Both the position numbers and the translations under genes were made by a program. Under the pieces are notes generated by a model that did not search any database, was not told the DNA's origin, and saw only the letters and a program-made list of their open reading frames with translations. A stretch of 64,000 bases of DNA from Escherichia phage EF202P1, in the sequence record OP172796.1, one strand, 5' to 3'. Positions 13,187 through 64,000 of this stretch are shown one piece after another. Positions within the stretch are counted from its first letter, which is position 1. Every line of letters begins with the position of its first letter.

Positions 13187-13200
13187 GAGGAAAATTTATA

Positions 13201-15585: not shown

Positions 15586-15592
15586 TCCCTTG

Positions 15593-15621
15593 TTGACTGA
15601 TTGTTAAGATGGTGTTAATAT
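15593..15621 (+). promoter_or_regulatory. sigma70-like promoter (TTGACT-17-TAATAT) overlapping a 9-bp inverted repeat
   Basis: Hexamers at correct spacing; AAGATGGTG/CACCATCTT stem straddles -10. Confidence 0.45.
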
Positions 15622-15664
15622 TCTTTATGGGTATTCTCACCATCTTGGCTGATGAGGTGATTAA

Positions 15665-15862: not shown

Positions 15863-16230
15863 AGTGGCTAGAGGAAGCTTTTAAAAATAATATTGGTGCA
15901 ATTGTAGTTGGTATTTTTAGTGTTATTGGGATGTATACCACCATGCAAGTTTCGGATGGTAAACAAGAAGTGTCTATCACAACAAAGTTACAGCAGTTGG
16001 ATAATTATTCCAAAAGTAATTATTCAGCTATCCGTGATTTACAGTCTGATATGAGGTTGCTTCAGCTAGGGATGGAGAACCAGAAAGTCCAGTTAGAGAA
16101 TGTTAAGGGTGAGAACGCAAAACTTACTAAGACTCTTGATAAATTCTCTGATAGTGTGAACAATCTGGCTCAATCAGTATCAGCCCTCCAAGCTATTACT
16201 GAAAAGAACACAAAGAATACTGAAAAGTAA
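15859..16230 (+). CDS. membrane-anchored coiled-coil protein
   Basis: N-terminal TM segment (IGAIVVGIFSVIGMYTT) plus coiled-coil rest; coupled to upstream ORF. Confidence 0.3.
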   Translation: MKWLEEAFKNNIGAIVVGIFSVIGMYTTMQVSDGKQEVSITTKLQQLDNYSKSNYSAIRDLQSDMRLLQLGMENQKVQLENVKGENAKLTKTLDKFSDSVNNLAQSVSALQAITEKNTKNTEK

Positions 16231-16237
16231 AGTTTAA

Positions 16238-16265
16238 GGCTCCTTTTTACGGGAGCCTTTTTTGT
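16238..16265 (+). terminator. intrinsic terminator at end of + strand structural block
   Basis: GGCTCC-loop-GGAGCC then TTTTTTGTTTT; convergent with thyA. Confidence 0.7.
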
Positions 16266-16266
16266 T

Positions 16267-17166
16267 TTATTTACCTACTGACAAAGGTGCTTCAATCTTT
16301 CCTGCATGTTGGTAATTGTTAATACCACCAATAAAGTCACTTGCAGTGAGATGTTTTAAGTCACTTAAAGTGTTAAGTGGGATACCAATCTCAAAAGTTG
16401 GTGCATGGAACTCTTCATTGTTCATCAGTTCATAAACCTGCTTCATATGGTTCTGATAAATCTGGGTATCTCCAAAAACACCTATCAAGTACCGTGGAGT
16501 GTATCCAGCCATCTTACAAAGAACTTCCAGAATAAAGCCATAAGATGCAATGTTAAAGGGAAGTCCTAAAAAGGTGTCTACAGAACGCTGATACCATTGT
16601 AAGTCAACTTCACCCTCGTTAGTGATATAAATCTGAAACAGAACATGACAAGGTGCTAAAGCCATTGAGTTAGCTGCAATATCTGCTGCATTCCAAGCAT
16701 TAACAAGCATGTAACGGTCTGTGATATCACCCTTCATCTTCGTTACTAAGGTATCTAACTGGTCTACAACACAACCATTATGACCTTCAAAGTTCCTCCA
16801 CTGAACCCCATAAATCCTTCCACCTGCATCTTCTAACCAATCTTGTTCAGAAGAATAATTAGAGCTTAACCAGCGTTTGAAATCATCTGACCAGATTGTC
16901 CAACGTTCTCCGTCATTTTCACCCCAAGTACGGTAACGGAGTTCACCCAGTTTATTCTCACCGTTCAGGAACCATAAAGCTTCCCCAATAACTTGCCGTG
17001 TAAACACCTGTTTAGATGTTAAAAGTGGGAAACCAGTTCTCATATCAAAACGAAATTGTGGTGGAGCAAATGCAGAGATAACAGCTCCAGTTCGTGTAGT
17101 ACGCAGTTCACCGACTGATAAAACATGGTTCAGGATATTTTTGTAACTTGTATCTGCTTGTGACAT
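16267..17166 (-). CDS. thyA: thymidylate synthase (ThyA type)
   Basis: Active-site region ALAPCHVLFQ and overall ThyA-like sequence. Confidence 0.9.
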   Translation of the reverse strand: MSQADTSYKNILNHVLSVGELRTTRTGAVISAFAPPQFRFDMRTGFPLLTSKQVFTRQVIGEALWFLNGENKLGELRYRTWGENDGERWTIWSDDFKRWLSSNYSSEQDWLEDAGGRIYGVQWRNFEGHNGCVVDQLDTLVTKMKGDITDRYMLVNAWNAADIAANSMALAPCHVLFQIYITNEGEVDLQWYQRSVDTFLGLPFNIASYGFILEVLCKMAGYTPRYLIGVFGDTQIYQNHMKQVYELMNNEEFHAPTFEIGIPLNTLSDLKHLTASDFIGGINNYQHAGKIEAPLSVGK

Positions 17167-45497: not shown

Positions 45498-46379
45498 ATG
45501 AAAACATCTATCCGTGTTATAATTCATTCACCGACAAAAGGGTCTCATGAAGAAGAGTTTAACATCATCCAGTTCCCTTCTGGTGAGATTGGTGGACACT
45601 TTTCACAAGAGCTTGTTGACTTTACTGCTCACGCAGCATCATCCATCAACAATGTGATTATGATTGTAAAAGGTTATGATAAAGACACATTGTTTGCTGT
45701 GGCACTTGCTAAAGAAGCAATTGATGATTTAGTTCCTCATGAATATGCCTTAAAGACTGTCATCTTTTACTACTTACCAAATGCACGATATGACCGTCAC
45801 ATGTTTAAAGGTGATGCAGCAGCTTTGAAGGTTTTTGCTAAACAGGTTAATGCAATGGGGTTTGGTGCGGTCTGTGCAGTTGACCCTCACAGTTATGTGC
45901 CAGATAACTTGTTTAACTGCTTCCAAAGTATTCCTCAAAATGAAATTGCAGTCCACTATGCAAATGACCCACTGGTTGATTACTTAGTAGCCCCAGATGC
46001 AGGTGCTTCTAAGAAGATTGCAGAGACTGCTAAAGAGGTGGATAAACCATACATCACAATGTCTAAAGTACGTAACCTTCAGACTGGTGAAATTACTGGT
46101 ATGCGAATCCTTGATGATGTGGATTTGACAGATAAAACTGTCATGATTCTTGATGATATCTGTGATGGTGGTCGAACCTTCATAGAAGCAGCTAAACATC
46201 TTCGTGAAGCAGGTGCAAAGCGTGTGGAACTCTATGTAACACATGGTATCTTCTCTAAAGGTGTTGAAAACCTTCTTGACAATGGTATTGACCACATCTA
46301 CACTACAAACTCTTTAGGGGAAGCTAAAGACCGTGGTTTAACACATTATGGTCAAGTGACTGTAGCAAACCTTGATTAA
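45498..46379 (+). CDS. ribose-phosphate pyrophosphokinase family protein (PRPP synthetase-like; candidate ADP-ribose pyrophosphokinase Adps)
   Basis: PRPP-binding loop VMILDDICDGGRT and Prs-like fold; adjacent to NAMPT-like gene. Confidence 0.8.
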   Translation: MKTSIRVIIHSPTKGSHEEEFNIIQFPSGEIGGHFSQELVDFTAHAASSINNVIMIVKGYDKDTLFAVALAKEAIDDLVPHEYALKTVIFYYLPNARYDRHMFKGDAAALKVFAKQVNAMGFGAVCAVDPHSYVPDNLFNCFQSIPQNEIAVHYANDPLVDYLVAPDAGASKKIAETAKEVDKPYITMSKVRNLQTGEITGMRILDDVDLTDKTVMILDDICDGGRTFIEAAKHLREAGAKRVELYVTHGIFSKGVENLLDNGIDHIYTTNSLGEAKDRGLTHYGQVTVANLD

Positions 46380-46388
46380 AACTTTATA

Positions 46389-46410
46389 GGGGGCTTTTAA
46401 GCCCCATTTT
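46389..46410 (+). terminator. hairpin/terminator between Prs-like and NAMPT-like genes
   Basis: GGGGCT-TTTA-AGCCCC then ATTTT. Confidence 0.55.
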
Positions 46411-46426
46411 GAGAGAGATTAAAAAG

Positions 46427-48208
46427 ATGACTAAATCACTTTATGCAGTGCCAGCAGGTTTAAACGCAGATGCTTACAAATCTGGTCACATTTACCAGTA
46501 CCCTAGTGCAACAGAGTACTTAATGTTTAACCTGACACCACGTAGTGACAAATGGTTTAACAGTCCCTTAGCAATTGATGGTGTAGTTGCTTTTGGTATT
46601 CAACGTTTTGTTAAAGATTACTTGATAGACCACTGGAACGCCACCTTTTTTGAACGTGACAAAAAAGAAGCAATTGATGAAATCTTAGAAGTCATGAACG
46701 GTGTTCTGGGTAAAGATGCTATTGGTCGAGAGCATTGGGAAGCACTTCATGACTTGGGTTATCTACCAGTTGAAGTATACGCTGTAGAAGAAGGAACAGT
46801 TGTCCCTATGCGTGTACCAATGGTTGTCTTCCAGAACACTGTTTCAGGTTTCCATTGGGTAGCGGGGTATCTGGAAGATGCTTTCTCTGCTGAGATTTGG
46901 AAGGCTTGTACCATTGCAACTATTGCATTGCACTACAAACGTATCTGTAAGAAGTGGGCTGACCTTACTTGTGACAACGACTTGCATTTACCTTATCAGT
47001 GCCATGACTTTGCTATGCGTGGTATGTCCGGCTTTACTGATGACGCATTTAACGCTGTAGGCCACTTAACCAGCTTTAAAGGGACTGATAGCTTCCCTGC
47101 TGTATATACAGCTAAACGCATCTACGGTCAGTCCTACCCAATCTCTGATATTGGTAGCTCTGTACCAGCCACTGAACACTCTGTAATGTGTGCAAACATT
47201 GCTTGGGAAGGTGGTAATGAGTTGATTGAAGAAGAAAGACGCTTCAAAGGTGAGTTACAAACCTTCCGTCGCTTCTTAACAGAAACTTACCCAACTGGTA
47301 TTGCAAGTGTTGTTTCAGATACTTATAATTTCTGGAGAACTGTATCAGTCATATTGCCAGAACTCCGTAAAGAGATTATGGAACGAAATGGCAAACTGGT
47401 AATTCGTCCTGATTCTGGAGACCCTGTACATATTGTCACAGGTTATAAAGCAATTCACTTAGAGTGTGCTAAAAAGGCTTATTATGAACACCTAAGCAAG
47501 CTGGAAGCCAGCGACACAATGTTGAATGCTGTTCTGAACATGAAGCTTGAAAACATCAATTATGGTATTGCTGGATGGCTACTGTCAGAAGGCTATGAGA
47601 TGGTTGTTGACAGAGAAGACTTTGAAGTTGCTGATACAGTGATGTTGAAAAATGCTTATATGGTTGGTTCTGCAAACGTTGTAACACGTCCTGTAGCAGA
47701 GATTGATGGGGCTATTAAGACACTGTATAACATCTTTGGAGGGACTATCAACTCTAAAGGTTTTAAGGTACTGGATGAGCACATTGGCCTTATTTATGGT
47801 GACTCTATCACGTTGGAACGTGCAAACGAAATCCTGAAGCGTTTGTATGAAATGGGTTTTGCAAGCTCTAACGTAGTGTTTGGTGTAGGTTCTTACACTT
47901 ACCAGTACATGACTCGTGACACCTTTGCATTTGCTGTCAAAGCAACTCTTGCAAGCATTGGTGGTAAAGAGATTATGCTTGCAAAAGACCCTAAAACAGA
48001 TAGTGGTGTTAAGAAGTCTGCTTTTGGTGGTGTAGCACCTATGTGGGATGGCGATAAGATGAAAGCTGTAGATGGCTATGGATTCCAGAGCTTTGCAGAT
48101 GTGCTTGAACATCCAGCTTGTGCTTTACGTTTAGTCTTTAGTGACTCTGAGCAGTTTGGTTACACAACTCTTGGTGATATTCGAAATAATATTGACAAGC
48201 AGCTTTAA
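46427..48208 (+). CDS. nicotinamide phosphoribosyltransferase family protein (NAMPT-like; candidate Namat)
   Basis: About 593 aa, NAMPT-like throughout; GAGAGAG RBS; own terminators either side of the pair. Confidence 0.8.
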   Translation: MTKSLYAVPAGLNADAYKSGHIYQYPSATEYLMFNLTPRSDKWFNSPLAIDGVVAFGIQRFVKDYLIDHWNATFFERDKKEAIDEILEVMNGVLGKDAIGREHWEALHDLGYLPVEVYAVEEGTVVPMRVPMVVFQNTVSGFHWVAGYLEDAFSAEIWKACTIATIALHYKRICKKWADLTCDNDLHLPYQCHDFAMRGMSGFTDDAFNAVGHLTSFKGTDSFPAVYTAKRIYGQSYPISDIGSSVPATEHSVMCANIAWEGGNELIEEERRFKGELQTFRRFLTETYPTGIASVVSDTYNFWRTVSVILPELRKEIMERNGKLVIRPDSGDPVHIVTGYKAIHLECAKKAYYEHLSKLEASDTMLNAVLNMKLENINYGIAGWLLSEGYEMVVDREDFEVADTVMLKNAYMVGSANVVTRPVAEIDGAIKTLYNIFGGTINSKGFKVLDEHIGLIYGDSITLERANEILKRLYEMGFASSNVVFGVGSYTYQYMTRDTFAFAVKATLASIGGKEIMLAKDPKTDSGVKKSAFGGVAPMWDGDKMKAVDGYGFQSFADVLEHPACALRLVFSDSEQFGYTTLGDIRNNIDKQL

Positions 48209-52788: not shown

Positions 52789-53337
52789 ATGAAGAAGTTG
52801 ATTCTAGGTTTGTGCTTAATGTTTACAGCACACTTATCTTATGCAGTTGACTGCCCAGAGCTATCAATTAGTCAAAAAGTAAACATGTTAAAAGCTTACC
52901 AGTATGGTGAGAATAATATGGGTAAAGGATGGGGCATCACTCTAGCTGCTATAGCCTTACAAGAGTCAGAGTTAGGTCTGAATATGGAGAATAAAAAGAC
53001 CCATGACTATGGTATCTTCCAGAATCACTTGAAGACTGTTGTAAAGCGTAACAAAATCAGTCCTAATGTGGCTAAAAAGAAACTCTTAAAAGACTTCGAC
53101 TATGCTGCAAAGGAAACACACAAAGAGCTTGAGTTTTGGACGAAGGTACATGGTCACCCAAAGTCAAAGAAGACTTTACAAAAAGTTTTAGCATCATATA
53201 ATGCTGGGTATTCGTACAAAATTCCTAAAGCTAAGAAATACTCTCAAGATGTCTACAACAATATGAAAGTTATTGCTCAATGTGAATTTGCAACAAACAT
53301 TTCTAAGGTAAATCATGAAAAAATTAAGAAAGTCTGA
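52789..53337 (+). CDS. lytic transglycosylase / lysozyme-like protein with signal peptide (candidate endolysin)
   Basis: Signal peptide MKKLILGLCLMFTAHLSYA; SLT-like catalytic region ALQESELG ... DYGIFQ. Confidence 0.5.
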   Translation: MKKLILGLCLMFTAHLSYAVDCPELSISQKVNMLKAYQYGENNMGKGWGITLAAIALQESELGLNMENKKTHDYGIFQNHLKTVVKRNKISPNVAKKKLLKDFDYAAKETHKELEFWTKVHGHPKSKKTLQKVLASYNAGYSYKIPKAKKYSQDVYNNMKVIAQCEFATNISKVNHEKIKKV

Positions 53338-54010
53338 TGAAGTACTGTGCCATGCTTATGACTTGCATCCTCATGAGTTAGGTCTTGATTCATGTGTATG
53401 GACTCCAGAACAGTGCAGAGATTTTGAAGATACTGCAAGAGAAGTTGTATGTTCACTTGAAGAGTTCCACACGCCAGAAACAATTGTGAACGTTGTGGAC
53501 AAAGAGACTGGACAATCTATAGGTGTAAGACGTGACAGTTTAGTTATAGTCAATAAAGACCTTGTAGAAAAAGGTAACCTCATCTTAGCAGATATTGATG
53601 GTGTTCTTACAAATTTTAATCACGAAGACTGCTCAACGGAACTGATTGATGGGTCATTTTCACAGTACACTAATTTGCTTGACTCTGTAAGTGCAAAACC
53701 AACGTATGTTTTTAATATTATTGATGCAATTGCTAACCATGCTGCCATTGGACTCTTGACAGCGAGGGGTGAATCTCAGAGAATACCTACTGAGATGTTT
53801 TTAAGGCATTACATAGAGCATGATTACATGCTTTTCATGCGTGGTTTTGGAACTAACTCTATAAGTGCAGAAAGTTTAAAAGTTAGGATGATTCAGTCTT
53901 GCATTCTTCCTTACTTTAATATAGTATGCTTTATAGAAGATACAGAGAAGAATGTTCAGAAGGTAAACAGAATCCTTCCACACATTAAAACCATGTTAGT
54001 TAAACATTGA
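53315..54010 (+). CDS. HAD-superfamily hydrolase-like protein
   Basis: HAD motif I LILADIDGVLT and motif IV-like FIEDTEKN. Confidence 0.4.
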   Translation: MKKLRKSDEVLCHAYDLHPHELGLDSCVWTPEQCRDFEDTAREVVCSLEEFHTPETIVNVVDKETGQSIGVRRDSLVIVNKDLVEKGNLILADIDGVLTNFNHEDCSTELIDGSFSQYTNLLDSVSAKPTYVFNIIDAIANHAAIGLLTARGESQRIPTEMFLRHYIEHDYMLFMRGFGTNSISAESLKVRMIQSCILPYFNIVCFIEDTEKNVQKVNRILPHIKTMLVKH

Positions 54011-56150: not shown

Positions 56151-56343
56151 CTTCTGCAAAGACTGCTCTATCGAAATGTTCGGACGTGATACAGGCGACT
56201 TAAAAGGTCTCATCACTGAAGATGACTTTAAAGCTGGCTATGCAATGCCAGTAATCTGTGAAGGTTGTGGGTGCATCTGGGTAGACCATGAAGGGCAACG
56301 TGTAAAACCTTCAGAAGATAAAGAATCTTGGGAGAGATGTTAA
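56143..56343 (+). CDS. zinc-ribbon small protein
   Basis: CKDC ... CEGCGC motif. Confidence 0.35.
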   Translation: MADFCKDCSIEMFGRDTGDLKGLITEDDFKAGYAMPVICEGCGCIWVDHEGQRVKPSEDKESWERC

Positions 56344-57129
56344 ATGGGTATTGTAAAAATCATCAATGGGGATATCTTCTCCGCATTTGATAAAGGTAAG
56401 TTTGATATCATTGGTCACGGTTGCAACTGTATGAACTTAATGGGTGCAGGTATCGCTGACAAGATTTCTAAACTTTACCCAAAAGCATATGAGACCGATA
56501 CAGAAGTTTATCTGTATGCAGGTGGCATAGGTCACAAACCCTGTGAAAATTTACTAGGGAATTTCTCTGTAGCACGTTTAGAACAAGGCCGTATAGCTAA
56601 CCTTTACACTCAGCTTAAGACTGGTAAAGATGCCCGATACAGTGCTTTAGAGTCATCTTTGAAACAACTTAACAGATACTGTGAAGTTAATCAGTTGAAG
56701 AAAGTTGGTTTACCTATGATTGGTGCAGGTATTGGTGGACTTGACCCTCAAGCCGTCACAGTTATCATCAATCAGGTGATGAAGAGTGTAGATGTCTATC
56801 TATATGTCTATGAAGGAGAGATGTACCACAAGTTACGCTCAGGTTGGAAGAACTACTGTGAACCAGAATACTTTGCAGGTGTAGTAACGTTCACAGATAA
56901 CGCAGTTACCCTCTTCAGACGAAGAAAAGGTAAGATACATCAAAGTAACCCTCCGGTTGAAAAGATGTCTCTAAGTAACGCTCTAGTTACCCACCTGTCG
57001 AAGAGCAATCACAGAATTGCCGTGACATTTGGTAGCGATGCAGACACCTACATCTATGCAAGAACTGATGAGAATGTCGAGGAAATTTTCTCATCACCGG
57101 AAGTAACCTTCTTAGACGCAAAGAACTAA
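56344..57129 (+). CDS. macro-domain protein (ADP-ribose binding/hydrolase) with C-terminal extension
   Basis: N-terminal macro signature INGDIFSAF...FDIIGHGCNCMNLMGAGIA and later LPMIGAGIGGLDP. Confidence 0.65.
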   Translation: MGIVKIINGDIFSAFDKGKFDIIGHGCNCMNLMGAGIADKISKLYPKAYETDTEVYLYAGGIGHKPCENLLGNFSVARLEQGRIANLYTQLKTGKDARYSALESSLKQLNRYCEVNQLKKVGLPMIGAGIGGLDPQAVTVIINQVMKSVDVYLYVYEGEMYHKLRSGWKNYCEPEYFAGVVTFTDNAVTLFRRRKGKIHQSNPPVEKMSLSNALVTHLSKSNHRIAVTFGSDADTYIYARTDENVEEIFSSPEVTFLDAKN

Positions 57130-57160
57130 GAAACTCTGTATAATATTCACAATAGACTAA

Positions 57161-57204
57161 GCCTTTCTTATCTGGTAAATTTTTCAGGTAAGGAGGGCTT
57201 TTTC
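57161..57204 (+). terminator. candidate terminator after macro-domain gene
   Basis: GCCTTTCTTA ... TAAGGAGGGC then TTTTT (G-U pairs). Confidence 0.4.
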
Positions 57205-57400
57205 ATTTCAGGATTGTGCAGGTATAAATCTGTAGAGAAATCTGTAGAGAAAATTTTGAACTCCAAAGAGAAAATTCATTTTCAAACTGTGCAGATAATC
57301 TCCAAAGAGCTTTTTTATTTTCAAAACGTGCAGACCCCGCTCAGGTCGGGCAAGAAAAATCATTTTAGAATTGTGCAGGTAGGTGGGTGCAGGTGGGGAT
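57201..57400. repeat. cluster of short direct repeats (TTTTCAAA..TGTGCAGA, AATCTGTAGAGAA x2, CTCCAAAGAG x2)
   Basis: Four copies of (T)CATTTTCAAA(A/C)(T/C)GTGCAG(A/G) plus tandem 13-mers. Confidence 0.55.
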
Positions 57401-57635: not shown

Positions 57636-57842
57636 ATGCTTTACAGTCGTGAATTGATGGTTACAACTAACGTTAACACAAAGGTAAAACGTTTTTATAT
57701 GCAAGTGTGCGGCGCATGGCGTAGAATATCAGAAGCTGACTATTGCAACTATGTAGAAACGGCTATTAATTCTAATTGCTACCTTACAAGAAACACTAAG
57801 AAATTTACAAGGCAGACAGCGATTTACTACTACGACAAATAA
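57636..57842 (+). CDS. small hypothetical protein (array gene 1)
   Basis: ATG after RBS CTGGAGAATCAAA; sigma70-like promoter upstream. Confidence 0.4.
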   Translation: MLYSRELMVTTNVNTKVKRFYMQVCGAWRRISEADYCNYVETAINSNCYLTRNTKKFTRQTAIYYYDK

Positions 57843-57928
57843 AGTACTTTACAGGGGGCTTAAAAGCTGATATCTTAAGCCCCAGATAAAGAGCTTTACC
57901 ACTCAATCCTAAATTGGAGAACTTAAAA
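57843..57928 (+). promoter_or_regulatory. class-A cassette (TTTACA - hairpin - TATCTT/TAAAGT - conserved leader - RBS)
   Basis: AAGTACTTTACAGGGGGCTT...AAGCCCCAGATAAAGAGCTTTACC...GGAGA...ATG. Confidence 0.5.
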
Positions 57929-58309
57929 ATGGCATACCGTGCACCTAAATTCATCAACAAAGACAACTTTCGCAACGCACTGGAGAAGTCACTTGATGAA
58001 AATTTTAAAGGTAACATTATCGTTGTTCACGCATTCAATTTTAAGTATGATGTAAACGGGAATAGAATCAACCATTACACAGCAACCATGTTAGATGGTA
58101 CGCTATCAAGTGAAAAAGCTGTACTGAATGCACTTGCAGGACGTGGTAAAAACCTGATAAGATGCGATAAGAGACGTTATCAGGGTGGCGCATATGGTTA
58201 TGATGATGCTGTTTATCATCTTGAAAATATGGGCTATTCAGTGGAAAAAGCTGGAGTGTCTCAAATAATCGGCAGTGACGGCTATGTGACAATTTTCAAA
58301 ATTAACTAA
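57929..58309 (+). CDS. small hypothetical protein (array gene 2)
   Basis: ATG 8 nt after GGAGA RBS of conserved cassette. Confidence 0.45.
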   Translation: MAYRAPKFINKDNFRNALEKSLDENFKGNIIVVHAFNFKYDVNGNRINHYTATMLDGTLSSEKAVLNALAGRGKNLIRCDKRRYQGGAYGYDDAVYHLENMGYSVEKAGVSQIIGSDGYVTIFKIN

Positions 58310-58311
58310 TA

Positions 58312-58397
58312 AAGTACTTTACAGGGGGCTTATAGTTCGATAAAGTAAGCCCCAGATAAAGAGCTTTACCACTAAATCCTAAATTGGAGATTCAAAA
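58312..58397 (+). promoter_or_regulatory. class-A cassette
   Basis: Near-identical copy; hairpin GGGGCTTATAGTTCGATAAAGTAAGCCCC. Confidence 0.5.
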
Positions 58398-58655
58398 ATG
58401 GCTATTATTAAAAACGTTGTAATTCCTGCAAAAACTCGTGATGACGCTCGCATCATGGCGAAAAAGTTAGGCGGAAAAGTGGTTGACAACGGAAAACAAA
58501 CTGCTGTAAGGTGGGGCGTGAAAGCTGATAAGCAACTAACCTTAAAACGCAGTTCAAACAACCTTTTTAAAGGTGTAAAATCACTCGGTAAAGTGAACGT
58601 GTTTACCAAAAAAGGCTATAAAATGCACTTATCATTAACTGGCAATTTAATCTGA
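58398..58655 (+). CDS. small hypothetical basic protein (array gene 3)
   Basis: Cassette-preceded ORF. Confidence 0.45.
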   Translation: MAIIKNVVIPAKTRDDARIMAKKLGGKVVDNGKQTAVRWGVKADKQLTLKRSSNNLFKGVKSLGKVNVFTKKGYKMHLSLTGNLI

Positions 58656-58745
58656 TAAAGTACTTTACAGGGGGCTTAAAAGCTGATATCTTAAGCCCCA
58701 GATAAAGAGCTTTACCACTCAATCCTTAAACTAGGAGATTCAAAA
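58656..58745 (+). promoter_or_regulatory. class-A cassette
   Basis: Near-identical copy. Confidence 0.5.
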
Positions 58746-59258
58746 ATGAAAACTGTAGACGCTACCTTTGAAGTTGTAAAAGAAAAATTTTCCATAATTT
58801 ATGAGGCTGTCAATTGCTACGAAGCAAGCCATAATCTTGATAATTGGAAGTTTACAGATGACCATCAAGGCGGTGTGACTATTAAAAACCCCAACTGTCA
58901 GCGTAATGGATTTAAATATGCAATTCCTTTACATTACAGCCTTAAACAGCTTTCAATTGACTATGCAAAACAAGGCCGGGAAAATCCATCGAAAGAGGCT
59001 TACATCAGCTTACAGAAAGAACTAGAAAGAGATTTAGAGGCTTCAGAATATAACATCGCCGCGAAAGTTGTAGATGCAAACGGTAGCACGGTTTTAGAGA
59101 GTTTTTATATTGGTTATGCTTTCGATTGGTGCTACAGTGACGGCGATGATTTAGATGACAGACTAAAAGAGGAAGTGAACAACGCAGACGCAGAATCTGA
59201 AGTATTAGAACGCTTGGAAGCATTAAAAGATTCAGTGATGAATATCTTTAAGAACTAA
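58746..59258 (+). CDS. hypothetical acidic protein (array gene 4)
   Basis: Cassette-preceded ORF. Confidence 0.45.
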   Translation: MKTVDATFEVVKEKFSIIYEAVNCYEASHNLDNWKFTDDHQGGVTIKNPNCQRNGFKYAIPLHYSLKQLSIDYAKQGRENPSKEAYISLQKELERDLEASEYNIAAKVVDANGSTVLESFYIGYAFDWCYSDGDDLDDRLKEEVNNADAESEVLERLEALKDSVMNIFKN

Positions 59259-59349
59259 ATAGATTTCTTTACACGGGGCTAACAAGCGGATATGATAGCC
59301 CCAGATAAAGAGATTTATCAAATTAACCCTTAAACTAGGAGATTCTAAA
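59259..59349 (+). promoter_or_regulatory. class-A cassette (divergent copy, TTTACA-17-TATGAT)
   Basis: Hairpin sequence differs (CGGGGCTA...TAGCCCC) but hexamers and spacing kept. Confidence 0.5.
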
Positions 59350-59646
59350 ATGAAATTATCAAATAAAGTTAGGGAAAACCTTAGCAAATTACTCAATAAA
59401 ATTGATTTTATCGAGACATCAAGGAATAGTCATGATGTTATGGAATGGTTACACGGCAAAATAAAAGGCCGTCGCGTCGTGATTTGCTTATGGAATAGTT
59501 GCAGGGAATATAAAAAGCCTGTATTGCAAATTAATGTTTATGATGATACTTTTAAAAGTCCTGTAAAGTCTAAAAGCGATTTATTAGAATCCTATGAGAT
59601 AACTGTAAATGGCAAAGTATCATGTAAAGAGGAAGCACCATGTTAA
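59350..59646 (+). CDS. small hypothetical protein (array gene 5)
   Basis: Cassette-preceded ORF. Confidence 0.45.
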   Translation: MKLSNKVRENLSKLLNKIDFIETSRNSHDVMEWLHGKIKGRRVVICLWNSCREYKKPVLQINVYDDTFKSPVKSKSDLLESYEITVNGKVSCKEEAPC

Positions 59647-59972
59647 TGATGGGTATCACTGCAATCATTGCCATTATAGCACTGTACAAGGCTTATAGCG
59701 CATATAATTTGGCAAGTAAGGCAATCACGCAACAGGTTAATAATAGCCTTGTAATGAGCTTTCTGGAGCGTTTAAGTGATGAACAAATAAAACGGTTAGA
59801 AATGAGCTTCAGATTTCAATCAAAAACTTATCAAATCAGCGACATTTTCAAAGATAATTTTCAGCTTGTCGATGATTATAACTCTCTGATAAATGCTTTA
59901 AATATCAGTGACTTAAAAGACTATTACACTGTAATTGTCCAAGAACTGAACAAACGAAAAAATTTCTCTTGA
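59640..59972 (+). CDS. small membrane protein (array gene 6)
   Basis: N-terminal TM helix MLMMGITAIIAIIALY; overlaps upstream ORF. Confidence 0.4.
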   Translation: MLMMGITAIIAIIALYKAYSAYNLASKAITQQVNNSLVMSFLERLSDEQIKRLEMSFRFQSKTYQISDIFKDNFQLVDDYNSLINALNISDLKDYYTVIVQELNKRKNFS

Positions 59973-60062
59973 TTTTAGTTTTAAAAACAAGTAAATTACT
60001 AATCAACGGGGAGGGAATGACCTTCCCCACTAAGTAAAGTCCTTAAACTAGGAGATTCAAAA
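59969..60062 (+). promoter_or_regulatory. class-B cassette (TTGATT-17-TAAATT promoter, 5' hairpin GGGGAGG/CCTTCCCC, RBS)
   Basis: Promoter hexamers, then AATCAACGGGGAGGGAATGACCTTCCCCACTAAGTAAAGTCCTTAAACTAGGAGATTC..ATG. Confidence 0.55.
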
Positions 60063-60335
60063 ATGTACACTACTAACAACGGTCGCACCTTAAACGTAAC
60101 CCTACGTCACTATGTGAACGGTGTAATGCACTTCGAGGATTTACAAGCTGAACAGCACATTTTGGATTGGCAACTTGCAGGATTCCAAAAAACTGCTACC
60201 GGATACGGGAAAAAGATTCCAACTAGCTGGAAAGTATACTACGAAGGCCGTTTGCGTAGAATTTATCAAGATGTATGCGGCAATAGCGCATCAAGTTACA
60301 TCATAGTAAAAGGCAAAAAGCTGCATTTAGTATAA
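60063..60335 (+). CDS. small hypothetical protein (array gene 7)
   Basis: Cassette-preceded ORF. Confidence 0.45.
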   Translation: MYTTNNGRTLNVTLRHYVNGVMHFEDLQAEQHILDWQLAGFQKTATGYGKKIPTSWKVYYEGRLRRIYQDVCGNSASSYIIVKGKKLHLV

Positions 60336-60420
60336 AGTACTTTACAAGGGGCTTATAGTTCGATAAAGTAAGCCCCAGATAAAGAGCTTTACCACTAAAT
60401 CCTAAATTGGAGATTCAAAA
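60336..60420 (+). promoter_or_regulatory. class-A cassette
   Basis: Near-identical copy. Confidence 0.5.
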
Positions 60421-60825
60421 ATGGCTATTAATAATCGTGAGTTATCTATCTTAAAAGCACGTTTGACCGTCAACCGGATTAATGTTATCACATCATCAGC
60501 ACCAGATGAAACACTGCAAAACATTATTGGGAAGATTCAAAGTATTATCTTAGACGTTGAAAGCGTAAAAAACTCATTGGCTGACGTTGCAGCCGGTATC
60601 ACGCTAGACGGTGCACAACATGAGATGGCCGACATGTTAGGCAAATCAAAGGTAATGAATAAAGAGCTTGATTTAAAGATGTTCCGATTTGCTGTTAAAG
60701 TGTGGCTATCCGTCGAGTATGACGCTAATTTTGCAATCGCTGATTTCTTTGCCACTTGGTTACAACGTAACTTAACAAATCATGATTTCCGTGATGTCTG
60801 TGATGCAATCTACGCAGAACTTTAA
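60421..60825 (+). CDS. small hypothetical protein (array gene 8)
   Basis: Cassette-preceded ORF. Confidence 0.45.
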   Translation: MAINNRELSILKARLTVNRINVITSSAPDETLQNIIGKIQSIILDVESVKNSLADVAAGITLDGAQHEMADMLGKSKVMNKELDLKMFRFAVKVWLSVEYDANFAIADFFATWLQRNLTNHDFRDVCDAIYAEL

Positions 60826-60832
60826 AAAGATG

Positions 60833-60925
60833 TTGACACTGATTTTTAGATAGATTAAATTACTCATCAACGGGGAGGCAATAGCCTCCCTACTAAGTAA
60901 AGTCCTTAAACTAGGAGATTCAAAA
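60833..60925 (+). promoter_or_regulatory. class-B cassette (TTGACA-17-TAAATT)
   Basis: As above, hairpin variant GGGGAGGCAATAGCCTCCC. Confidence 0.55.
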
Positions 60926-61123
60926 ATGGCTATTATTAACGGCTTAAACATTGAAACAACACACATCAAAGATATCAAAGTTGGTGATGTAGTCCTTTCC
61001 CACGGCGTAGAAAAAACTGTCACTGCAAAGGATATCAAAGAGGATTCTTTCATGGGTAGAACTCTCTTCGGTGATTCTTATTGCTTAGGTTATCTTGCAG
61101 TTTTAAAAGTTGTCAAAAATTAA
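60926..61123 (+). CDS. small hypothetical protein (array gene 9)
   Basis: Cassette-preceded ORF. Confidence 0.4.
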   Translation: MAIINGLNIETTHIKDIKVGDVVLSHGVEKTVTAKDIKEDSFMGRTLFGDSYCLGYLAVLKVVKN

Positions 61124-61215
61124 GTAATAAAGTGCTTTACAAGGGGCTTAAAAAGTTGGTATCTTAAGCCCCAGATAAAGAGCTTTACACAGTCCTTAAA
61201 CTAGGAGATTAAAAA
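61124..61215 (+). promoter_or_regulatory. class-A cassette
   Basis: Near-identical copy. Confidence 0.5.
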
Positions 61216-61464
61216 ATGATGAACTATTTCAATGTCCCTGATACCTGCCGACTATTGACACAAGAAGAAAACTTGGGTAAACCTTTTCTTTACCACATAC
61301 CAGACAACACACCAAAAACTTATAGTTACAATGTCAACCGTTTTACCGCATACGCTGCAAAGAACGGTTATAAGTTGGTCACTCAAAAAGTAATGCTGGT
61401 TACAACCGCTGATGAGATTCCTACAGTTGCAGTTAAACTAATTTTCTCAAAAAAAGTTAAATAA
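61216..61464 (+). CDS. small hypothetical protein (array gene 10)
   Basis: Cassette-preceded ORF. Confidence 0.45.
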   Translation: MMNYFNVPDTCRLLTQEENLGKPFLYHIPDNTPKTYSYNVNRFTAYAAKNGYKLVTQKVMLVTTADEIPTVAVKLIFSKKVK

Positions 61465-61549
61465 AGTACTTTACAAGGGGCTTATAGTTCGATAAAGTAA
61501 GCCCCAGATAAAGAGCTTTACCACTAAATCCTAAACTGGAGATTCAAAA
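61465..61549 (+). promoter_or_regulatory. class-A cassette
   Basis: Near-identical copy. Confidence 0.5.
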
Positions 61550-62113
61550 ATGAAATGCTATCACGGAACTACCCTCAAAAACTTTGTAAACCTGCTGAAT
61601 GGTGGCGACAAGCCGGAAGGAATCTGGAACTGCTCATACATGGATGATTGTTTCTACGTTTACCCAATGAACAAGATTATCAAAACGGAATGTCTGGAAG
61701 ATGAGGAAGATTCTTACATTCGTGAACGCTGCATTCAAAACGCTTTAGAATCTGGGCTTATTACGGCAGCTTTCCAAATGGAAACGCAGGATGTAATTGT
61801 CATTGAGATGGATATCCCAGAGGAAGAGCTAGAGGATGATTATTCTTGTGACAACATGAGCGATATCGCCAGCTTTACCGGACACTTTGATAAAAATTGG
61901 ATTATTGGCCTTCACTCGACGAAATTTAGTGCGATGTATGCACCTTTCTTTGTACCAGATGCAACTAACCGCAATTTAGGCTATGTTGACGATGATTTGT
62001 TAAGTATGGCGAAAATTGTACAGAATAGCGGTGATAGTTCCGTGTTTTGTGACTTGCTGGATAAAATCACGGCAAACATCACAGAGTGCAATTTAAAAGA
62101 CTTTTTAGGTTAA
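61550..62113 (+). CDS. hypothetical strongly acidic protein (array gene 11)
   Basis: Cassette-preceded ORF; Asp/Glu-rich (EDEEDSY, EEELEDDYSCD). Confidence 0.45.
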   Translation: MKCYHGTTLKNFVNLLNGGDKPEGIWNCSYMDDCFYVYPMNKIIKTECLEDEEDSYIRERCIQNALESGLITAAFQMETQDVIVIEMDIPEEELEDDYSCDNMSDIASFTGHFDKNWIIGLHSTKFSAMYAPFFVPDATNRNLGYVDDDLLSMAKIVQNSGDSSVFCDLLDKITANITECNLKDFLG

Positions 62114-62176
62114 TCAGTACAAAGACACCAACTTCCAACTTAAGGCCCATACAGGGCCATTTAAAGGGCTTAAATC

Positions 62177-62410
62177 ATGCTTACAACCGTTTATCTTATC
62201 CTTTCTATTTGTAATGGTCATTCATGTGATTTTAAAGGGCTTGAGGAGTTTACAGGGAGTAAAGAAAATGCTATTCAAGTTTGCCAGATAGCAAGACAAG
62301 ACTATCCCGCCAGTGATGATATTCAATGTTACTTTAAGACAGAAGACAGCGACGGCGTTTATTTTGACAGTGTCGATGGTCAATATGAAATTATCATTGA
62401 AAAAGACTAG
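62177..62410 (+). CDS. small hypothetical protein (array gene 12)
   Basis: ORF after GGCCC hairpin. Confidence 0.4.
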   Translation: MLTTVYLILSICNGHSCDFKGLEEFTGSKENAIQVCQIARQDYPASDDIQCYFKTEDSDGVYFDSVDGQYEIIIEKD

Positions 62411-62501
62411 ACAAGCCTGATAAAAGTCTGTAAATTGTCAATCAACGGGGAGGGAATGACCTTCCCCACTAAATAAAGTCCTTAAACTAGGAGATTCTAA
62501 A
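62408..62501 (+). promoter_or_regulatory. class-B cassette (TAGACA-17-TAAATT)
   Basis: As above. Confidence 0.5.
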
Positions 62502-62843
62502 ATGGCTTATGTAACTGTAATTACCGATAAAGCTGGCGCATCTTGGTCAACTCAAGTAAGCGATAAGATGTCACCTATGCAGTGCCTAAAATACTTTGAG
62601 CAGTGGAACAAAGGCGAGGATGTAAGCCCCTTTCAAGTGATGCAGATTATCCATGTAGACAACGAAGGGAATAAAACGACGCTGAATAGTGAGCACTATG
62701 TAAGCCGTTTTGAAACGAGAAGTAAAACAATGAAACTTTTACGTGAATCCGGTTACGCCCATATCGCCGCGTTAATCTGGGATGACCTGCTAAAAAGACA
62801 GCGTATCAGCTATGTAAAACCTGAAAAAATATTTATCAGTTAA
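62502..62843 (+). CDS. small hypothetical protein (array gene 13)
   Basis: Cassette-preceded ORF. Confidence 0.45.
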   Translation: MAYVTVITDKAGASWSTQVSDKMSPMQCLKYFEQWNKGEDVSPFQVMQIIHVDNEGNKTTLNSEHYVSRFETRSKTMKLLRESGYAHIAALIWDDLLKRQRISYVKPEKIFIS

Positions 62844-62973
62844 TCAATAACTTACAAAAAACTTTTAAAAAGATGTTGACAATCCCTCTTGACATTGGTA
62901 ACTTTGTTCGAGGGGGGTTTATCTAAAAGGGATTAACTTAAAAGATTCTTTATAGATAGACTTAAAAAATTGC

Positions 62974-63066
62974 TTGCAATCAGATATCAAAACAAGTAAA
63001 TTACTCATCAACGGGGAGGCAATAACCTCCCTACTAAGTAAAGTCCTTAAACTAGGAGATTCTAAA
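62974..63066 (+). promoter_or_regulatory. class-B cassette (TTGCAA-17-TAAATT)
   Basis: As above. Confidence 0.5.
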
Positions 63067-63597
63067 ATGAACAAGTTCAAAGCTATCAACTATATTCGTT
63101 CCGTCAATGTCATGTCAAAGCCTGTAAAAGATACGTATGAATTTCGTTGTAATGGTGTACACTTCGCAACAATCACCAAATCAGAAAACGGGGCTTATTA
63201 CGTTCATCGCCGTAATGTTGCAACCGTTGTAGTCTCTCATTTTATGCAAGCTGTCGCGGAACTTCTCCCGATGTTTTTAGGTCTTTATTTAGATGAGTGT
63301 AAAAACGTTCACAGCCACGTTAAAAACCTTTTAAATAGCTATAAAATGGCTTATGAACGTTCTATCAAGTCCTTAAACAAGTTTTACAACGCACCTGAAA
63401 ATACTGTATCAATGGCCTACGATGTAAATGGTGAGGCGGTGAGTCTCTTTGAAGTGGAAGAAATCAAGCTGCATGATTTACGCCCTAGCGGTTACTCTAA
63501 GACTCTCGGTGAAGGTTTAACGTTCAATATCAAGAACTTAGAAAAAACTTTAAAAGATATTGAAAAAGATATTGACGAGACAATCAAAAATCTGTAA
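63067..63597 (+). CDS. hypothetical protein (array gene 14)
   Basis: Start at ATG after class-B cassette RBS. Confidence 0.45.
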   Translation: MNKFKAINYIRSVNVMSKPVKDTYEFRCNGVHFATITKSENGAYYVHRRNVATVVVSHFMQAVAELLPMFLGLYLDECKNVHSHVKNLLNSYKMAYERSIKSLNKFYNAPENTVSMAYDVNGEAVSLFEVEEIKLHDLRPSGYSKTLGEGLTFNIKNLEKTLKDIEKDIDETIKNL

Positions 63598-63663
63598 ATT
63601 GTCAATCAACGGGGAGGGAATGACCTTCCCCACTAAGTAAAGTCCTAAACTGGAGATTCAAAA
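63573..63663 (+). promoter_or_regulatory. class-B cassette (TTGACG-16-TAAATT)
   Basis: As above; -35 lies in 3' end of upstream CDS. Confidence 0.5.
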
Positions 63664-63927
63664 ATGGAACACGTCGAACTGACCACAATTTTACAAATTG
63701 CAACCGACAAAGAGGATGTAGCATTATTCCACCGTATCGAAAGTGACTTGTTCAATGGTGAAATCATTAAAGAATCTTACGAAGTGGTCGGATTCAAAGA
63801 TGGTAAATCATTTGGATTCTTTGACCTCGACAAAGGCAAAGCGGTTACAAAATATGATGTTTTATCTTGTGAGATTCTGACAAAATACAACGAAAAAAGA
63901 CTTGCAACATACGCCAACATGCAGTAA
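63664..63927 (+). CDS. small hypothetical protein (array gene 15)
   Basis: Cassette-preceded ORF. Confidence 0.45.
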   Translation: MEHVELTTILQIATDKEDVALFHRIESDLFNGEIIKESYEVVGFKDGKSFGFFDLDKGKAVTKYDVLSCEILTKYNEKRLATYANMQ

Positions 63928-63996
63928 ATTACTAATCAACGGGGAGGGAATGACCTTCCCCACTAAATAAAGTCCTTAAACTAGGAGATTCTAAAA
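63902..63996 (+). promoter_or_regulatory. class-B cassette (TTGCAA-17-TAAATT)
   Basis: As above; next ORF starts at about 63997 and runs off the window. Confidence 0.5.
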
Positions 63997-64000
63997 TGGC

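What the first reader, a model, noticed from the sequence alone, without database searches (positions are those of the whole stretch)
56344..57129. Phage macro-domain protein with about 100-aa C-terminal extension
The N-terminal 150 aa carry macro-domain hallmarks (GDIFSAF...DIIGHGCNCMNLMGAGIA...LPMIGAGIGGLDP). Macro domains bind or hydrolyse ADP-ribose derivatives; in a phage this suggests reversal of ADP-ribosylation-based defence (DarT-like DNA ADP-ribosylation) or turnover of ADP-ribose-derived signals. It is the last gene before the small-ORF array and about 8 kb from the NAD+-related pair, so the genome may invest doubly in ADP-ribose/NAD+ metabolism. The C-terminal third matches nothing I recognise.
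Basis: partly seen in the sequence, partly recalled or inferred. Interest (0 to 1): 0.65.

Follow-up and report, generated by a model that had tools for sequence, protein, structure and literature searches.

The report
Phage macro-domain enzyme with orphan tail
This is the conserved macro-domain "putative phosphatase" of FelixO1-like phages: an ADP-ribose-processing enzyme that most likely supplies the phage's own NAD+-rebuilding pathway, fused to a fast-evolving C-terminal domain that matches nothing known.

Summary

The window is a Felixounavirus. The protein is 97% identical to Bas63 gp95 ("putative phosphatase", PHROG 335) and is already annotated in more than 250 phage genomes.

The active site carries invariant H25, N28 and Q90. 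It lacks the catalytic Lys of TARG1, DarG2 and phage AdfM. The same H/N/Q pattern occurs in phage Adpp (an ADPR-1''-phosphate phosphatase) and in SCO6735 (a thymidine-ADPr-DNA hydrolase), so the residues do not fix the substrate. By sequence, the nearest characterised relative is Adpp.

The "NAD+ pair" 8.1 kb upstream is NARP1 (Adps plus Namat), which was validated in Bas63.

Best reading (confidence 0.45): an unlinked Adpp-type enzyme that converts ADPR-1''-P to ADPR for NARP1, countering RES-type NAD+ cleavage. Reversal of DarT remains a live rival. The role of the C-terminal domain is unknown. It has no conserved catalytic residues and evolves twice as fast as the macro domain, which suggests a binding module. 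Verdict: a new variant of a known kind, of moderate interest.

The parts
56344..57129 (+). CDS for the 261-aa two-domain macro protein, the ortholog of Bas63 bas63_0095 ('putative phosphatase')
   Evidence: Listed as an ORF. 97% identical to Bas63 gp95 and 100% identical to the protein in phage NBEco005. PHROG 335 matches at E 3e-112 over residues 1-260.
56344..56814 (+). Macro domain (residues 1-157) of the ALC1/TARG1-like class, in the phage Tk.4/Adpp clade
56416..56427 (+). Codons for H25-G-C-N28, the start of the HxCNC motif (C29 follows)
   Evidence: H25 and N28 are invariant in 31 homologs. H25 aligns with Adpp H24, whose H24A mutant loses anti-aRES activity. It also aligns with Poa1p H23, mutated in PDB 6lfs, and with SCO6735 H24, whose H24Y mutant is inactive. 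N28 aligns with DarG N22 and SCO6735 N27.
56611..56613 (+). Codon for Q90, at the position of the catalytic Lys of TARG1 (K84), DarG (K80) and AdfM (K78)
   Evidence: Invariant Gln in the family. Alignment A4 shows K in TARG1, DarG and AdfM, Q in the query, Tk.4 and Adpp, and S in Poa1p. SCO6735 has Q85 at this position, and its Q85A mutant is inactive.
56713..56745 (+). Codons for the P124-M-I-G-A-G-I-G-G-L-D134 phosphate-binding loop
   Evidence: P124, G127 and G129 are invariant and G132 nearly invariant across all 31 homologs. D134 is invariant within the 18 two-domain members. The loop aligns with the equivalent loop of all macro comparators.
56815..57126 (+). C-terminal orphan domain (residues 158-261): helix 158-167, six beta strands, helix 243-249
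   Evidence: pLDDT 81-94 in the full-length model and 77.9 when modelled alone, with the same topology. No relatives were found. Only P174, G179 and, nearly, Y236 are conserved. Mean pairwise identity is 30%, against 58% for the macro domain.
56330..56336 (+). Shine-Dalgarno-like GGGAGAG. The upstream ORF's TAA stop (56341-56343) abuts the ATG.
   Evidence: Read directly from the sequence. Translational coupling within the operon is an inference.
57159..57210 (+). Intrinsic terminator: a 17-bp stem followed by a U tract, ending the transcription unit
   Evidence: Found by the pattern scan. The RNA fold gives -25.8 kcal/mol with z -4.73, and 0 of 200 shuffles fold as well.
45498..46379 (+). Adps (ADPR-pyrophosphate synthetase, annotated as prs), the first enzyme of NARP1 and the proposed functional partner
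   Evidence: Pfam and NCBIfam place it in the ribose-phosphate diphosphokinase family. 77% identical to Bas63 gp79, which was validated as part of NARP1. The partnership with the macro protein is inferred.
46409..48208 (+). Namat (nicotinamide ADPR-transferase, annotated as Nampt/NadV), the second enzyme of NARP1. The true start is probably the ATG at 46427.
   Evidence: NAPRTase and NAMPT_N domains are present. 98% identical to Bas63 gp80 from residue 7 onward.

Best explanation
The gene encodes a two-domain early or middle protein of Felixounaviruses.

[quoted passage not shown] It most likely acts like phage Adpp: it removes the 1''-phosphate from ADPR-1''-phosphate. That compound is produced when RES-domain defence proteins (aRES) cleave NAD+ by phosphorolysis. 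Removing the phosphate yields ADPR, which the phage's own NARP1 enzymes (Adps, then Namat, encoded 8 kb upstream) convert back to NAD+. On this reading Felixounaviruses run a 'split' NARP1-AP pathway, with the phosphatase gene outside the NARP1 operon.

**C-terminal domain.** The ~100-residue C-terminal domain is non-catalytic, specific to this lineage and fast-evolving. It probably mediates a protein-protein contact (partner unknown) or regulates the enzyme.

**Shown here:** the ORF, the macro fold, the conserved residues, the clade membership, the presence of NARP1 in the same genome, and the orphan status of the C-terminal domain.

**Inferred:** the substrate, the link to NARP1 and aRES, and the role of the C-terminal domain.
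For: - **Fold and family.** Macro fold and family membership are established.
- **Nearest characterised relative is Adpp.** BLASTP gives E 5e-13 over the whole macro domain to Vibrio phage Gary gp137 and E 6e-22 to the NARP1-operon macro of phage JG004. This compares with 2.5e-5 to SCO6735 and 1e-3 to AdfM.
- **Coherent phage clade.** Tk.4, the JG004 macro and Gary Adpp score 88-99 bits with each other, and the query scores 53-83 bits to them.
- **Catalytic His conserved.** The His that is required in Adpp (H24A abolishes anti-aRES activity; supplement table S4) is invariant here as H25. The HxCNC motif is shared with Poa1p, a bona fide ADPR-1''-P phosphatase.
- **NARP1 in the same genome.** The pair is 77% and 98% identical to the validated Bas63 gp79/gp80. 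NARP1 alone cannot use ADPR-1''-P.
- **Conserved combination.** NARP1 plus the two-domain macro protein is kept across Ounavirinae down to ~33-44% identity: phiEa104 and the metagenomic contigs L003 and L004.
- **Hosts encode aRES.** aRES systems come from E. coli, Klebsiella and Enterobacter, and table S2 lists Escherichia and Salmonella genomes.
- **Not previously counted.** The preprint counted only macro genes within two genes of NARP1. Its table S1 has no Escherichia or Salmonella phages, so this case would have been missed.
Against: - **The residues do not fix the substrate.** The H/N/Q constellation is also that of SCO6735, a DNA de-ADP-ribosylase.
- **Distance from NARP1.** The gene lies 15-17 genes away from NARP1, not in its operon.
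- **Co-occurrence is not independent evidence.** Within Ounavirinae it could simply reflect whole-genome synteny.
- **The closest macro-only relatives do not travel with NARP1.** T-even Tk.4 sits between vs and tk with no NARP1 gene nearby. Only 5 of 48 sampled non-Ounavirinae loci have NARP1-like genes within 10 kb. The clade's general function therefore cannot depend on NARP1.
- **Architecture differs.** Validated Adpp is a single-domain protein of 158 aa, and the extra domain here is unexplained.
- **Promiscuity.** ADPR-1''-P phosphatase activity has been reported in vitro for unrelated viral macrodomains, so it is not very diagnostic.
- **No experimental data.** Nothing has been reported for bas63_0095.
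Confidence: 0.45

Rival explanations
1. SCO6735-type DNA de-ADP-ribosylase (anti-DarT2). The macro domain removes ADP-ribose from thymidine in phage ssDNA through a Gln-dependent, water-mediated mechanism. The C-terminal domain may bind DarT or DNA, by analogy with the two-domain DarG2 antitoxin.
For: - DarG HMMs hit at E 1e-12 to 4e-13.
- H25, N28 and Q90 match SCO6735 H24, N27 and Q85, all required for dT-ADPr-DNA hydrolysis.
- The two-domain layout (macro plus C-terminal module) resembles DarG2.
- Phage macro proteins that counter DarTG2 exist: AdfM.
Against: - The catalytic Lys shared by DarG2, TARG1 and AdfM is absent.
- Similarity to SCO6735 and AdfM is much weaker than to Adpp (31 and 26 bits against 53-76).
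- The DarG HMM score of 47.7 bits is far below the 250-bit cutoff and covers only the macro half of the model. The validated Adpp-type protein hits DarG equally well.
- The C-terminal domain shows no similarity to any PDB structure.
- Its pI is not consistently basic across the family.
- The mobile loop after Q90 is about 5 residues shorter than in SCO6735, and the residue equivalent to K89 is not conserved.
Confidence: 0.2
2. A hydrolase for another ADP-ribose conjugate. Candidates are ADP-ribosylated RNA or protein (for example CmdTAC-type mRNA modification), O-acetyl-ADP-ribose, or ADPR-based immune signals such as His-ADPR or cyclic ADPR isomers. On this reading the enzyme is a general-purpose phage 'eraser' shared with T-even Tk.4 and acts independently of NARP1.
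For: - The clade is very broad: 2805 phage records match.
- It includes T-even Tk.4, which has no NARP1 gene in its neighbourhood.
- Only 5 of 48 non-Ounavirinae relatives have NARP1-like genes nearby.
- Comparative genomics predicts that phage macro domains mainly target soluble ADPr derivatives (PMC9503650).
- TARG1-class macro domains are known to be promiscuous.
Against: No member of this phage clade has been shown to have any of these activities. The only experimentally characterised member is the phosphatase Adpp. No ADP-ribosyltransferase partner or signal-related gene was seen next to the gene.
Confidence: 0.25
3. A non-catalytic ADP-ribose binder or sponge, or a degenerate macro domain whose real function lies in the C-terminal domain.
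For: Some macro domains are readers only. The C-terminal domain is conserved in architecture across the subfamily.
Against: H25, N28, Q90 and the Gly-rich loops are invariant across 31 homologs down to ~30% identity. Their equivalents are required for activity in Adpp and SCO6735. The macro domain is the more conserved half of the protein.
Confidence: 0.05

Closest known systems
Adpp, the macro-domain ADPR-1''-phosphate phosphatase of the NARP1-AP pathway (Vibrio phage Gary KNV71_gp137; Osterman et al., bioRxiv 2026, 10.64898/2026.01.28.702374)
   Same: - Belongs to the same phage macro clade: E 5e-13 over the whole domain, and E 6e-22 to the JG004 NARP1-operon macro.
- Shares the HxCNC motif, including the required His.
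- Has Gln at the TARG1-Lys position.
- Has a similar Gly-rich loop, IGAGIGGLD against IGCGLAGGD.
- Is encoded in a genome that carries Adps and Namat.
   Different: - Only 27-30% identical.
- Not in the NARP1 operon: 8.1 kb and 15-17 genes downstream.
- Carries an extra ~100-aa C-terminal domain that is absent from Adpp (158 aa).
- Activity is untested.
T4-group Tk.4 (uncharacterised macro-domain protein between vs and tk)
   Same: It is the closest sequence relative outside Ounavirinae (83 bits, 34% identity) and has the same HGCNC and LYTQ motifs.
   Different: Tk.4 is a single-domain protein of ~159 aa. No NARP1 genes lie in its neighbourhood. To my knowledge its function is unknown.
Saccharomyces cerevisiae Poa1p (ADPR-1''-phosphate phosphatase, PDB 6lfq)
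   Different: Poa1p has Ser, not Gln, at the position of Q90 and a long insertion before the second loop. It acts in tRNA-splicing by-product clearance, not in phage counter-defence.
SCO6735 / BT1257 (ALC1-like macro; thymidine-ADPr-DNA hydrolase that protects against DarT; PMC9411070)
   Different: Sequence similarity is weak (31-33 bits). SCO6735 has a longer Lys-bearing mobile loop. It is a single-domain protein of cellular origin.
DarG2 antitoxin and phage AdfM (PhiKZ gp104)
   Different: The catalytic Lys (K80 in DarG, K78 in AdfM) is replaced by Gln. The C-terminal domain is unrelated to the DarT-binding domain of DarG: the DarG HMM covers only model positions 4-153 of 338. Similarity to AdfM is only 26 bits.

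Membership tests
Macro domain superfamily (Pfam PF01661) | Profile match above the curated gathering score | tested here: met
   32.1 bits against a cutoff of 22, E 1.2e-7, residues 25-141.
Macro domain superfamily (Pfam PF01661) | Three-layer alpha/beta/alpha macro fold | tested here: met
Macro domain superfamily (Pfam PF01661) | Gly-rich ADP-ribose/phosphate-binding loops | tested here: met
   M33-G-A-G-I-A38 and P124-x-I-G-A-G-I-G-G132 align with the loops of all comparators. The Gly residues are invariant or nearly so.
Macro domain superfamily (Pfam PF01661) | Binds or hydrolyses ADP-ribose derivatives | not testable with these tools
   Needs biochemistry.
Adpp / NARP1-AP (phage ADPR-1''-P phosphatase) | Poa1p-like macro domain homologous to Gary gp137 | tested here: met
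   BLASTP E 1e-13 over residues 3-154. The query sits in one clade with the NARP1-operon macros.
Adpp / NARP1-AP (phage ADPR-1''-P phosphatase) | Catalytic His (Gary H24) present | tested here: met
   H25 is invariant and aligned with H24. The H24A mutant is listed in supplement table S4.
Adpp / NARP1-AP (phage ADPR-1''-P phosphatase) | Gene lies within the NARP1 operon (within two genes of Adps or Namat, the authors' criterion) | tested here: not met
   The gene lies 8.1 kb and 15-17 genes downstream. No Escherichia or Salmonella phage appears in their table S1.
Adpp / NARP1-AP (phage ADPR-1''-P phosphatase) | Adps and Namat encoded in the same genome | tested here: met
   Adps at 45498..46379 and Namat at 46409..48208 are 77% and 98% identical to the validated Bas63 gp79/gp80.
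Adpp / NARP1-AP (phage ADPR-1''-P phosphatase) | Converts ADPR-1''-P to ADPR and restores NARP1 function against aRES | not testable with these tools
   Needs an enzyme assay and a phage infection assay.
DarG2 / AdfM (DNA ADP-ribosylglycohydrolase, anti-DarT2) | Catalytic Lys (DarG K80, TARG1 K84, AdfM K78) | tested here: not met
   An invariant Gln (Q90) occupies this column.
DarG2 / AdfM (DNA ADP-ribosylglycohydrolase, anti-DarT2) | Conserved Asn (DarG N22) | tested here: met
   N28 is invariant and aligned.
DarG2 / AdfM (DNA ADP-ribosylglycohydrolase, anti-DarT2) | Full-length match to the DarG model, including the C-terminal DarT-binding domain | tested here: not met
SCO6735-type ALC1-like macro (Gln-dependent dT-ADPr-DNA hydrolase) | His24 / Asn27 / Gln85 constellation | tested here: met
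   H25, N28 and Q90 occupy these positions, read by transitive alignment through JG004 and A4.
SCO6735-type ALC1-like macro (Gln-dependent dT-ADPr-DNA hydrolase) | Extended electropositive mobile loop with Lys89 and Lys93 | tested here: inconclusive
   The loop is about 5 residues shorter. K92 is not conserved in the family, whereas K/R95 is mostly conserved. Adpp also has a basic residue at that position.
SCO6735-type ALC1-like macro (Gln-dependent dT-ADPr-DNA hydrolase) | Hydrolyses thymidine-linked ADPr on ssDNA | not testable with these tools
   Needs biochemistry.
MacroD-type O-acetyl-ADP-ribose deacetylase (the annotation in some GenBank records) | Closest similarity to MacroD/YmdB-type macro domains | tested here: not met

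The most novel reading that the evidence does not exclude
The orphan C-terminal domain may be a dedicated defence-protein-binding module. The protein would then be a dual-mode counter-defence factor, analogous to DarG2 (enzyme plus toxin binder). The macro domain would clear the product of an NAD+-consuming or ADP-ribosylating immune effector, while the fast-evolving C-terminal domain would directly bind and block that effector (a RES/aRES-type NAD+ phosphorylase or a DarT-like transferase), or dock the enzyme onto the NARP1 enzymes. The evidence does not exclude this. The domain is well folded, packs against the macro domain (pTM 0.89), has no conserved catalytic residues, evolves twice as fast as the enzyme domain, and is retained across all Ounavirinae.
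Probability: 0.12. Interest if true: 0.7.

Novelty: new variant of a known kind. Interest (0 to 1): 0.4.

Why it matters
Bas63, a close relative of this phage, is the model in which the NARP1 NAD+-reconstitution pathway was discovered. NARP1 is reported to be defeated by RES-type defence because it cannot use ADPR-1''-phosphate.

If gp95 is an unlinked Adpp, three things follow. Felixounaviruses already carry the fix. The reported figure of 15% of NARP1 phages with an associated phosphatase underestimates the trait, because only adjacent genes were counted. And the result is directly testable with existing Bas63 knockouts and aRES strains.

The work here also shows that the H/N/Q active site cannot separate a phosphatase from a DNA de-ADP-ribosylase. 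That is a caution for annotating the roughly 2800 phage genomes that carry this clade, including T4 Tk.4.

The C-terminal domain is a confidently folded, lineage-restricted module with no known relatives, attached to a counter-defence enzyme. That makes it a reasonable place to look for a new protein-protein inhibition mechanism.

Tried and rejected
1. **Assigning the substrate from the missing catalytic Lys.** I first took Q90 as excluding DNA de-ADP-ribosylation. I withdrew this after finding that SCO6735 uses Gln at that position.
2. **C-terminal domain homologous to aRad1, the aRES-binding phage inhibitor.** hhalign gave probability 0.06, so this was rejected.
4. **C-terminal domain as a nucleic-acid-binding module.** Its pI ranges from 4.6 to 8.9 across the family, so it is not consistently basic.
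5. **C-terminal domain in other architectures or as a standalone protein.** The exhaustive phmmer search found only its own family plus one 54-aa fragment. Pfam found nothing, and PHROGs returned only PHROG 335.
6. **Fold search against afdb50.** The library was not available, so AlphaFold-database neighbours of the C-terminal domain remain unchecked.
7. **Enrichment of NARP1 near macro-only relatives in IMG/VR.** Only 5 of 48 loci had NARP1-like genes nearby. The evidence is weak, and the sample is biased by the search patterns used.
8. **Published phenotype for Bas63 gene 95.** PhageMaP reports none, and its defence panel, taken from Gao et al., is not reported to include DarTG and predates aRES.
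9. **Rfam scan of the whole window at gathering thresholds.** No hits.
10. **LeRoux 2022 (DarTG).** The paper was not available in the library.
Full report
**1. Observation**

The ORF is exactly as described: 56344..57129 on the + strand, 261 aa, starting with ATG, with the quoted motifs present verbatim. The stop codon of the upstream 66-aa ORF (TAA, 56341-56343) abuts the ATG, and a GGGAGAG stretch lies 8-14 nt upstream. The gene is therefore embedded in a tightly packed + strand operon. Thirty nucleotides after its stop codon lies a 17-bp hairpin followed by a U tract (57159-57210). It folds at -25.8 kcal/mol with z -4.7 against shuffles. The gene is thus the last of its transcription unit. 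Beyond it lies an array of small ORFs, each preceded by a repeated cassette.

**2. Genome identity**

The region is 93-96% identical at the nucleotide level to many Felixounavirus genomes (Ounavirinae; Escherichia, Salmonella and Shigella phages). The protein is 100% identical to one in phage NBEco005 and 97% identical to bas63_0095 ("putative phosphatase") of phage JohannRWettstein, also called Bas63. It matches PHROG 335 ("phosphatase") at E 3e-112 over its full length. GenBank records call it phosphatase, macro domain protein, O-acetyl-ADP-ribose deacetylase or hypothetical protein. The gene is therefore not new as a gene.

**3. Macro domain**

- Pfam Macro is matched above its gathering score.
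- A profile of 31 homologs hits OARD1/TARG1 (4e-17), DarG (5e-16), SCO6735 (2.5e-15) and Poa1p (4e-15) among PDB sequences.
- The AlphaFold2 model is confident (pLDDT 90.4, pTM 0.89).

It belongs to the ALC1/TARG1-like class of macro domains.

**4. Active site**

Residues invariant in 31 homologs include H25, G26, N28, C29, M33, G36, A38, N86, L87, T89, Q90, P124, G127 and G129. I made a joint alignment with experimentally characterised proteins. Their sequences were taken from tool outputs or verified against PDB entries.

The column holding the catalytic Lys of TARG1 (K84), DarG (K80) and phage AdfM (K78; PMC13309987) reads as follows:
- Gln in the query, in T-even Tk.4 and in the Adpp proteins.
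- Ser in Poa1p.

The HxCNC motif is shared with Adpp, Tk.4 and Poa1p. Its His is the residue mutated in Adpp H24A and in Poa1p PDB entry 6lfs.

I first read this as excluding DNA de-ADP-ribosylation. That was wrong. SCO6735, an ALC1-like macro protein that hydrolyses thymidine-linked ADPr-DNA and protects Streptomyces from DarT, has H24, N27 and Q85 at exactly these positions, and all three are needed for activity (PMC9411070). The residue pattern therefore excludes a Lys-type mechanism but does not separate a phosphatase from a DNA hydrolase.

**5. Nearest characterised relative**

Pairwise BLASTP places the query in a coherent phage clade:

| Comparator | Bits |
|---|---|
| T-even Tk.4 | 83 |
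| NARP1-operon macro of Pseudomonas phage JG004 | 76 |
| Adpp-type protein of Vibrio phage Hades | 60 |
| Validated Adpp, Vibrio phage Gary | 53 |
| DarG, TARG1 | 35-43 |
| SCO6735, BT1257 | 31-33 |
| AdfM | 26 |

Tk.4, the JG004 macro and Gary Adpp score 88-99 bits with each other. The only member of this clade with a demonstrated activity is Adpp.

**6. The NAD+ pair and the literature**

The genes at 45498..46379 and 46409..48208 are a prs-like and a Nampt-like gene. They are 77% and 98% identical to Bas63 gp79 and gp80. In Bas63 this operon is NARP1. Adps pyrophosphorylates ADPR, and Namat then joins nicotinamide to it, rebuilding NAD+ after cleavage by SIR2-, TIR- or SEFIR-type defences (10.1101/2024.02.11.579819; confirmed by PhageMaP).

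A 2026 preprint (10.64898/2026.01.28.702374) reports three things:
- RES-domain defence proteins (aRES, from E. coli, Klebsiella and Enterobacter) cleave NAD+ to nicotinamide plus ADPR-1''-phosphate.
- NARP1 cannot use that product.
- About 15% of NARP1 operons contain a Poa1p-like macro gene, Adpp, that dephosphorylates it. The extended pathway is called NARP1-AP.

Their census counted only macro genes within two genes of NARP1. Its table S1 contains no Escherichia or Salmonella phage. The Felixounavirus gene lies 8.1 kb and 15-17 genes downstream and would not have been counted.

**7. Distribution**

The two-domain architecture (246-264 aa) is kept across Ounavirinae and metagenomic relatives down to ~33% identity. 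It is present in Erwinia phage phiEa104 gp016, whose C-terminus is recognised by the PHROG 335 profile at E 4.6e-13. All of these genomes keep the same synteny: Adps, Namat, rIIA, rIIB, a PNK-like gene, spanins and then the macro gene.

This co-occurrence with NARP1 is consistent with a functional link, but within one syntenic lineage it is not independent evidence. Outside the lineage the macro clade is far broader than NARP1:
- 2805 phage records match.
- T-even Tk.4 lies between vs and tk.
- Only 5 of 48 sampled non-Ounavirinae loci have NARP1-like genes within 10 kb.

This is the main reason my confidence in the Adpp reading stays below one half.

**8. C-terminal domain (residues 158-261)**

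The domain is confidently folded in the full-length model and has the same topology when modelled alone: helix 158-167, strands 179-184, 187-194, 197-200, 213-217, 225-229 and 235-238, then helix 243-249. A pTM of 0.89 implies a fixed orientation relative to the macro domain.

It has no detectable relatives:
- phmmer against 1.84 billion representatives found only its own family.
- No Pfam family matches in any of 15 members.
- The only BFVD match is the SUSP2 ortholog.
- It shows no similarity to the DarT-binding domain of DarG or to the aRES inhibitor aRad1.

Only P174, G179 and, nearly, Y236 are conserved, so it is unlikely to be an enzyme. Its pI is not consistently basic. It diverges about twice as fast as the macro domain: mean pairwise identity is 30% against 58%, and it is the lower of the two in 152 of 153 pairs. 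A fast-evolving, non-catalytic, stably attached module fits a protein-binding or regulatory role, but this is inference only.

**9. Verdict**

- The macro domain is real.
- The link to the NAD+ pair is plausible and now has a specific, published mechanism behind it.
- DarT reversal is neither shown nor excluded.

The protein family is already known and annotated, and macro domains are common in myoviruses (41%; PMC9503650).

Two things are new:
- A candidate unlinked Adpp exists in the very phage group where NARP1 was discovered.
- It carries a lineage-specific orphan domain fused to the enzyme.

I rate this a new variant of a known kind and of moderate interest (0.4). Decisive experiments are available with existing Bas63 and aRES reagents.

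Noticed in passing
window 57800-64000: Each small ORF downstream of the macro gene is preceded by a repeated intergenic cassette of ~85-103 nt. The cassette has three parts: a GC-rich hairpin (AGGGGGCTTAA...TTAAGCCCC or GGGGAGGGAATGACCTTCCCC), a conserved AAAGAGCTTTAC or AAGTCCTTAAAC block, and a strong RBS (CTAGGAGATTCAAAAATG). There are 5-8 copies per repeat family. These look like modular terminator/promoter/RBS units driving an array of early genes.
   Followed up: partly
window 57203-57381: Three to four tandem-spaced copies of a 22-35-nt repeat (TCATTTnnnnAnTGTGCAGnTA, or CTCCAAAGAG...TTTTCAAACTGTGCAGA) lie in the ~450-nt ORF-poor gap just after the terminator (families D8 and D10). Bas63 annotates two tiny minus-strand ORFs in the equivalent gap. 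The function is unknown. Many relatives align here in three pieces, which suggests indel variation.
   Followed up: no
window 53315-54010 (+), 231 aa: The homologs of this protein are annotated 'polynucleotide kinase' in Bas63 (bas63_0087) and phiEa104 (gp008). They carry weak or faint HAD_PNKP Pfam hits in metagenomic relatives. The window protein itself gave no Pfam or NCBIfam hit. phiEa104 also has a RegB-like endoribonuclease next to it. This may be an RNA-repair or end-healing function in the same operon as the macro gene.
   Followed up: partly
window 46409-46427: The mechanical ORF call for Namat starts at a TTG at 46409. The alignment to Bas63 gp80 begins at residue 7, so the real start is probably the ATG at 46427.
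   Followed up: yes
window 45498-46379 (Adps): Adps is only 77% identical to Bas63 gp79, while the adjacent Namat is 98% identical. The divergence is concentrated in the N-terminal ~180 residues. This points to allelic exchange or mosaicism within the NARP1 operon among Felixounaviruses. The tblastn identity bands also split into a 90-99% group and a ~77% group.
   Followed up: partly
L074, L076, L081 (IMG/VR contigs), around 8000-17000: In some large uncultivated phage contigs a macro-only relative sits directly downstream of a Nampt/Namat-like gene, with a prs/Adps-like gene ~4.5-6 kb further on (28% and 27% identity to the window proteins). This could be another split arrangement of NARP-type genes with a macro protein.
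   Followed up: no
Pseudomonas phage JG004 NARP1-operon macro protein (table S1 of 10.64898/2026.01.28.702374): The best PDB sequence hit of this protein is SCO6735, a DNA de-ADP-ribosylase (E 1e-10), ahead of Poa1p. Even macro proteins encoded in NARP1 operons are therefore as close to a known anti-DarT enzyme as to the phosphatase Poa1p. Dual activity in this clade seems worth testing.
   Followed up: partly
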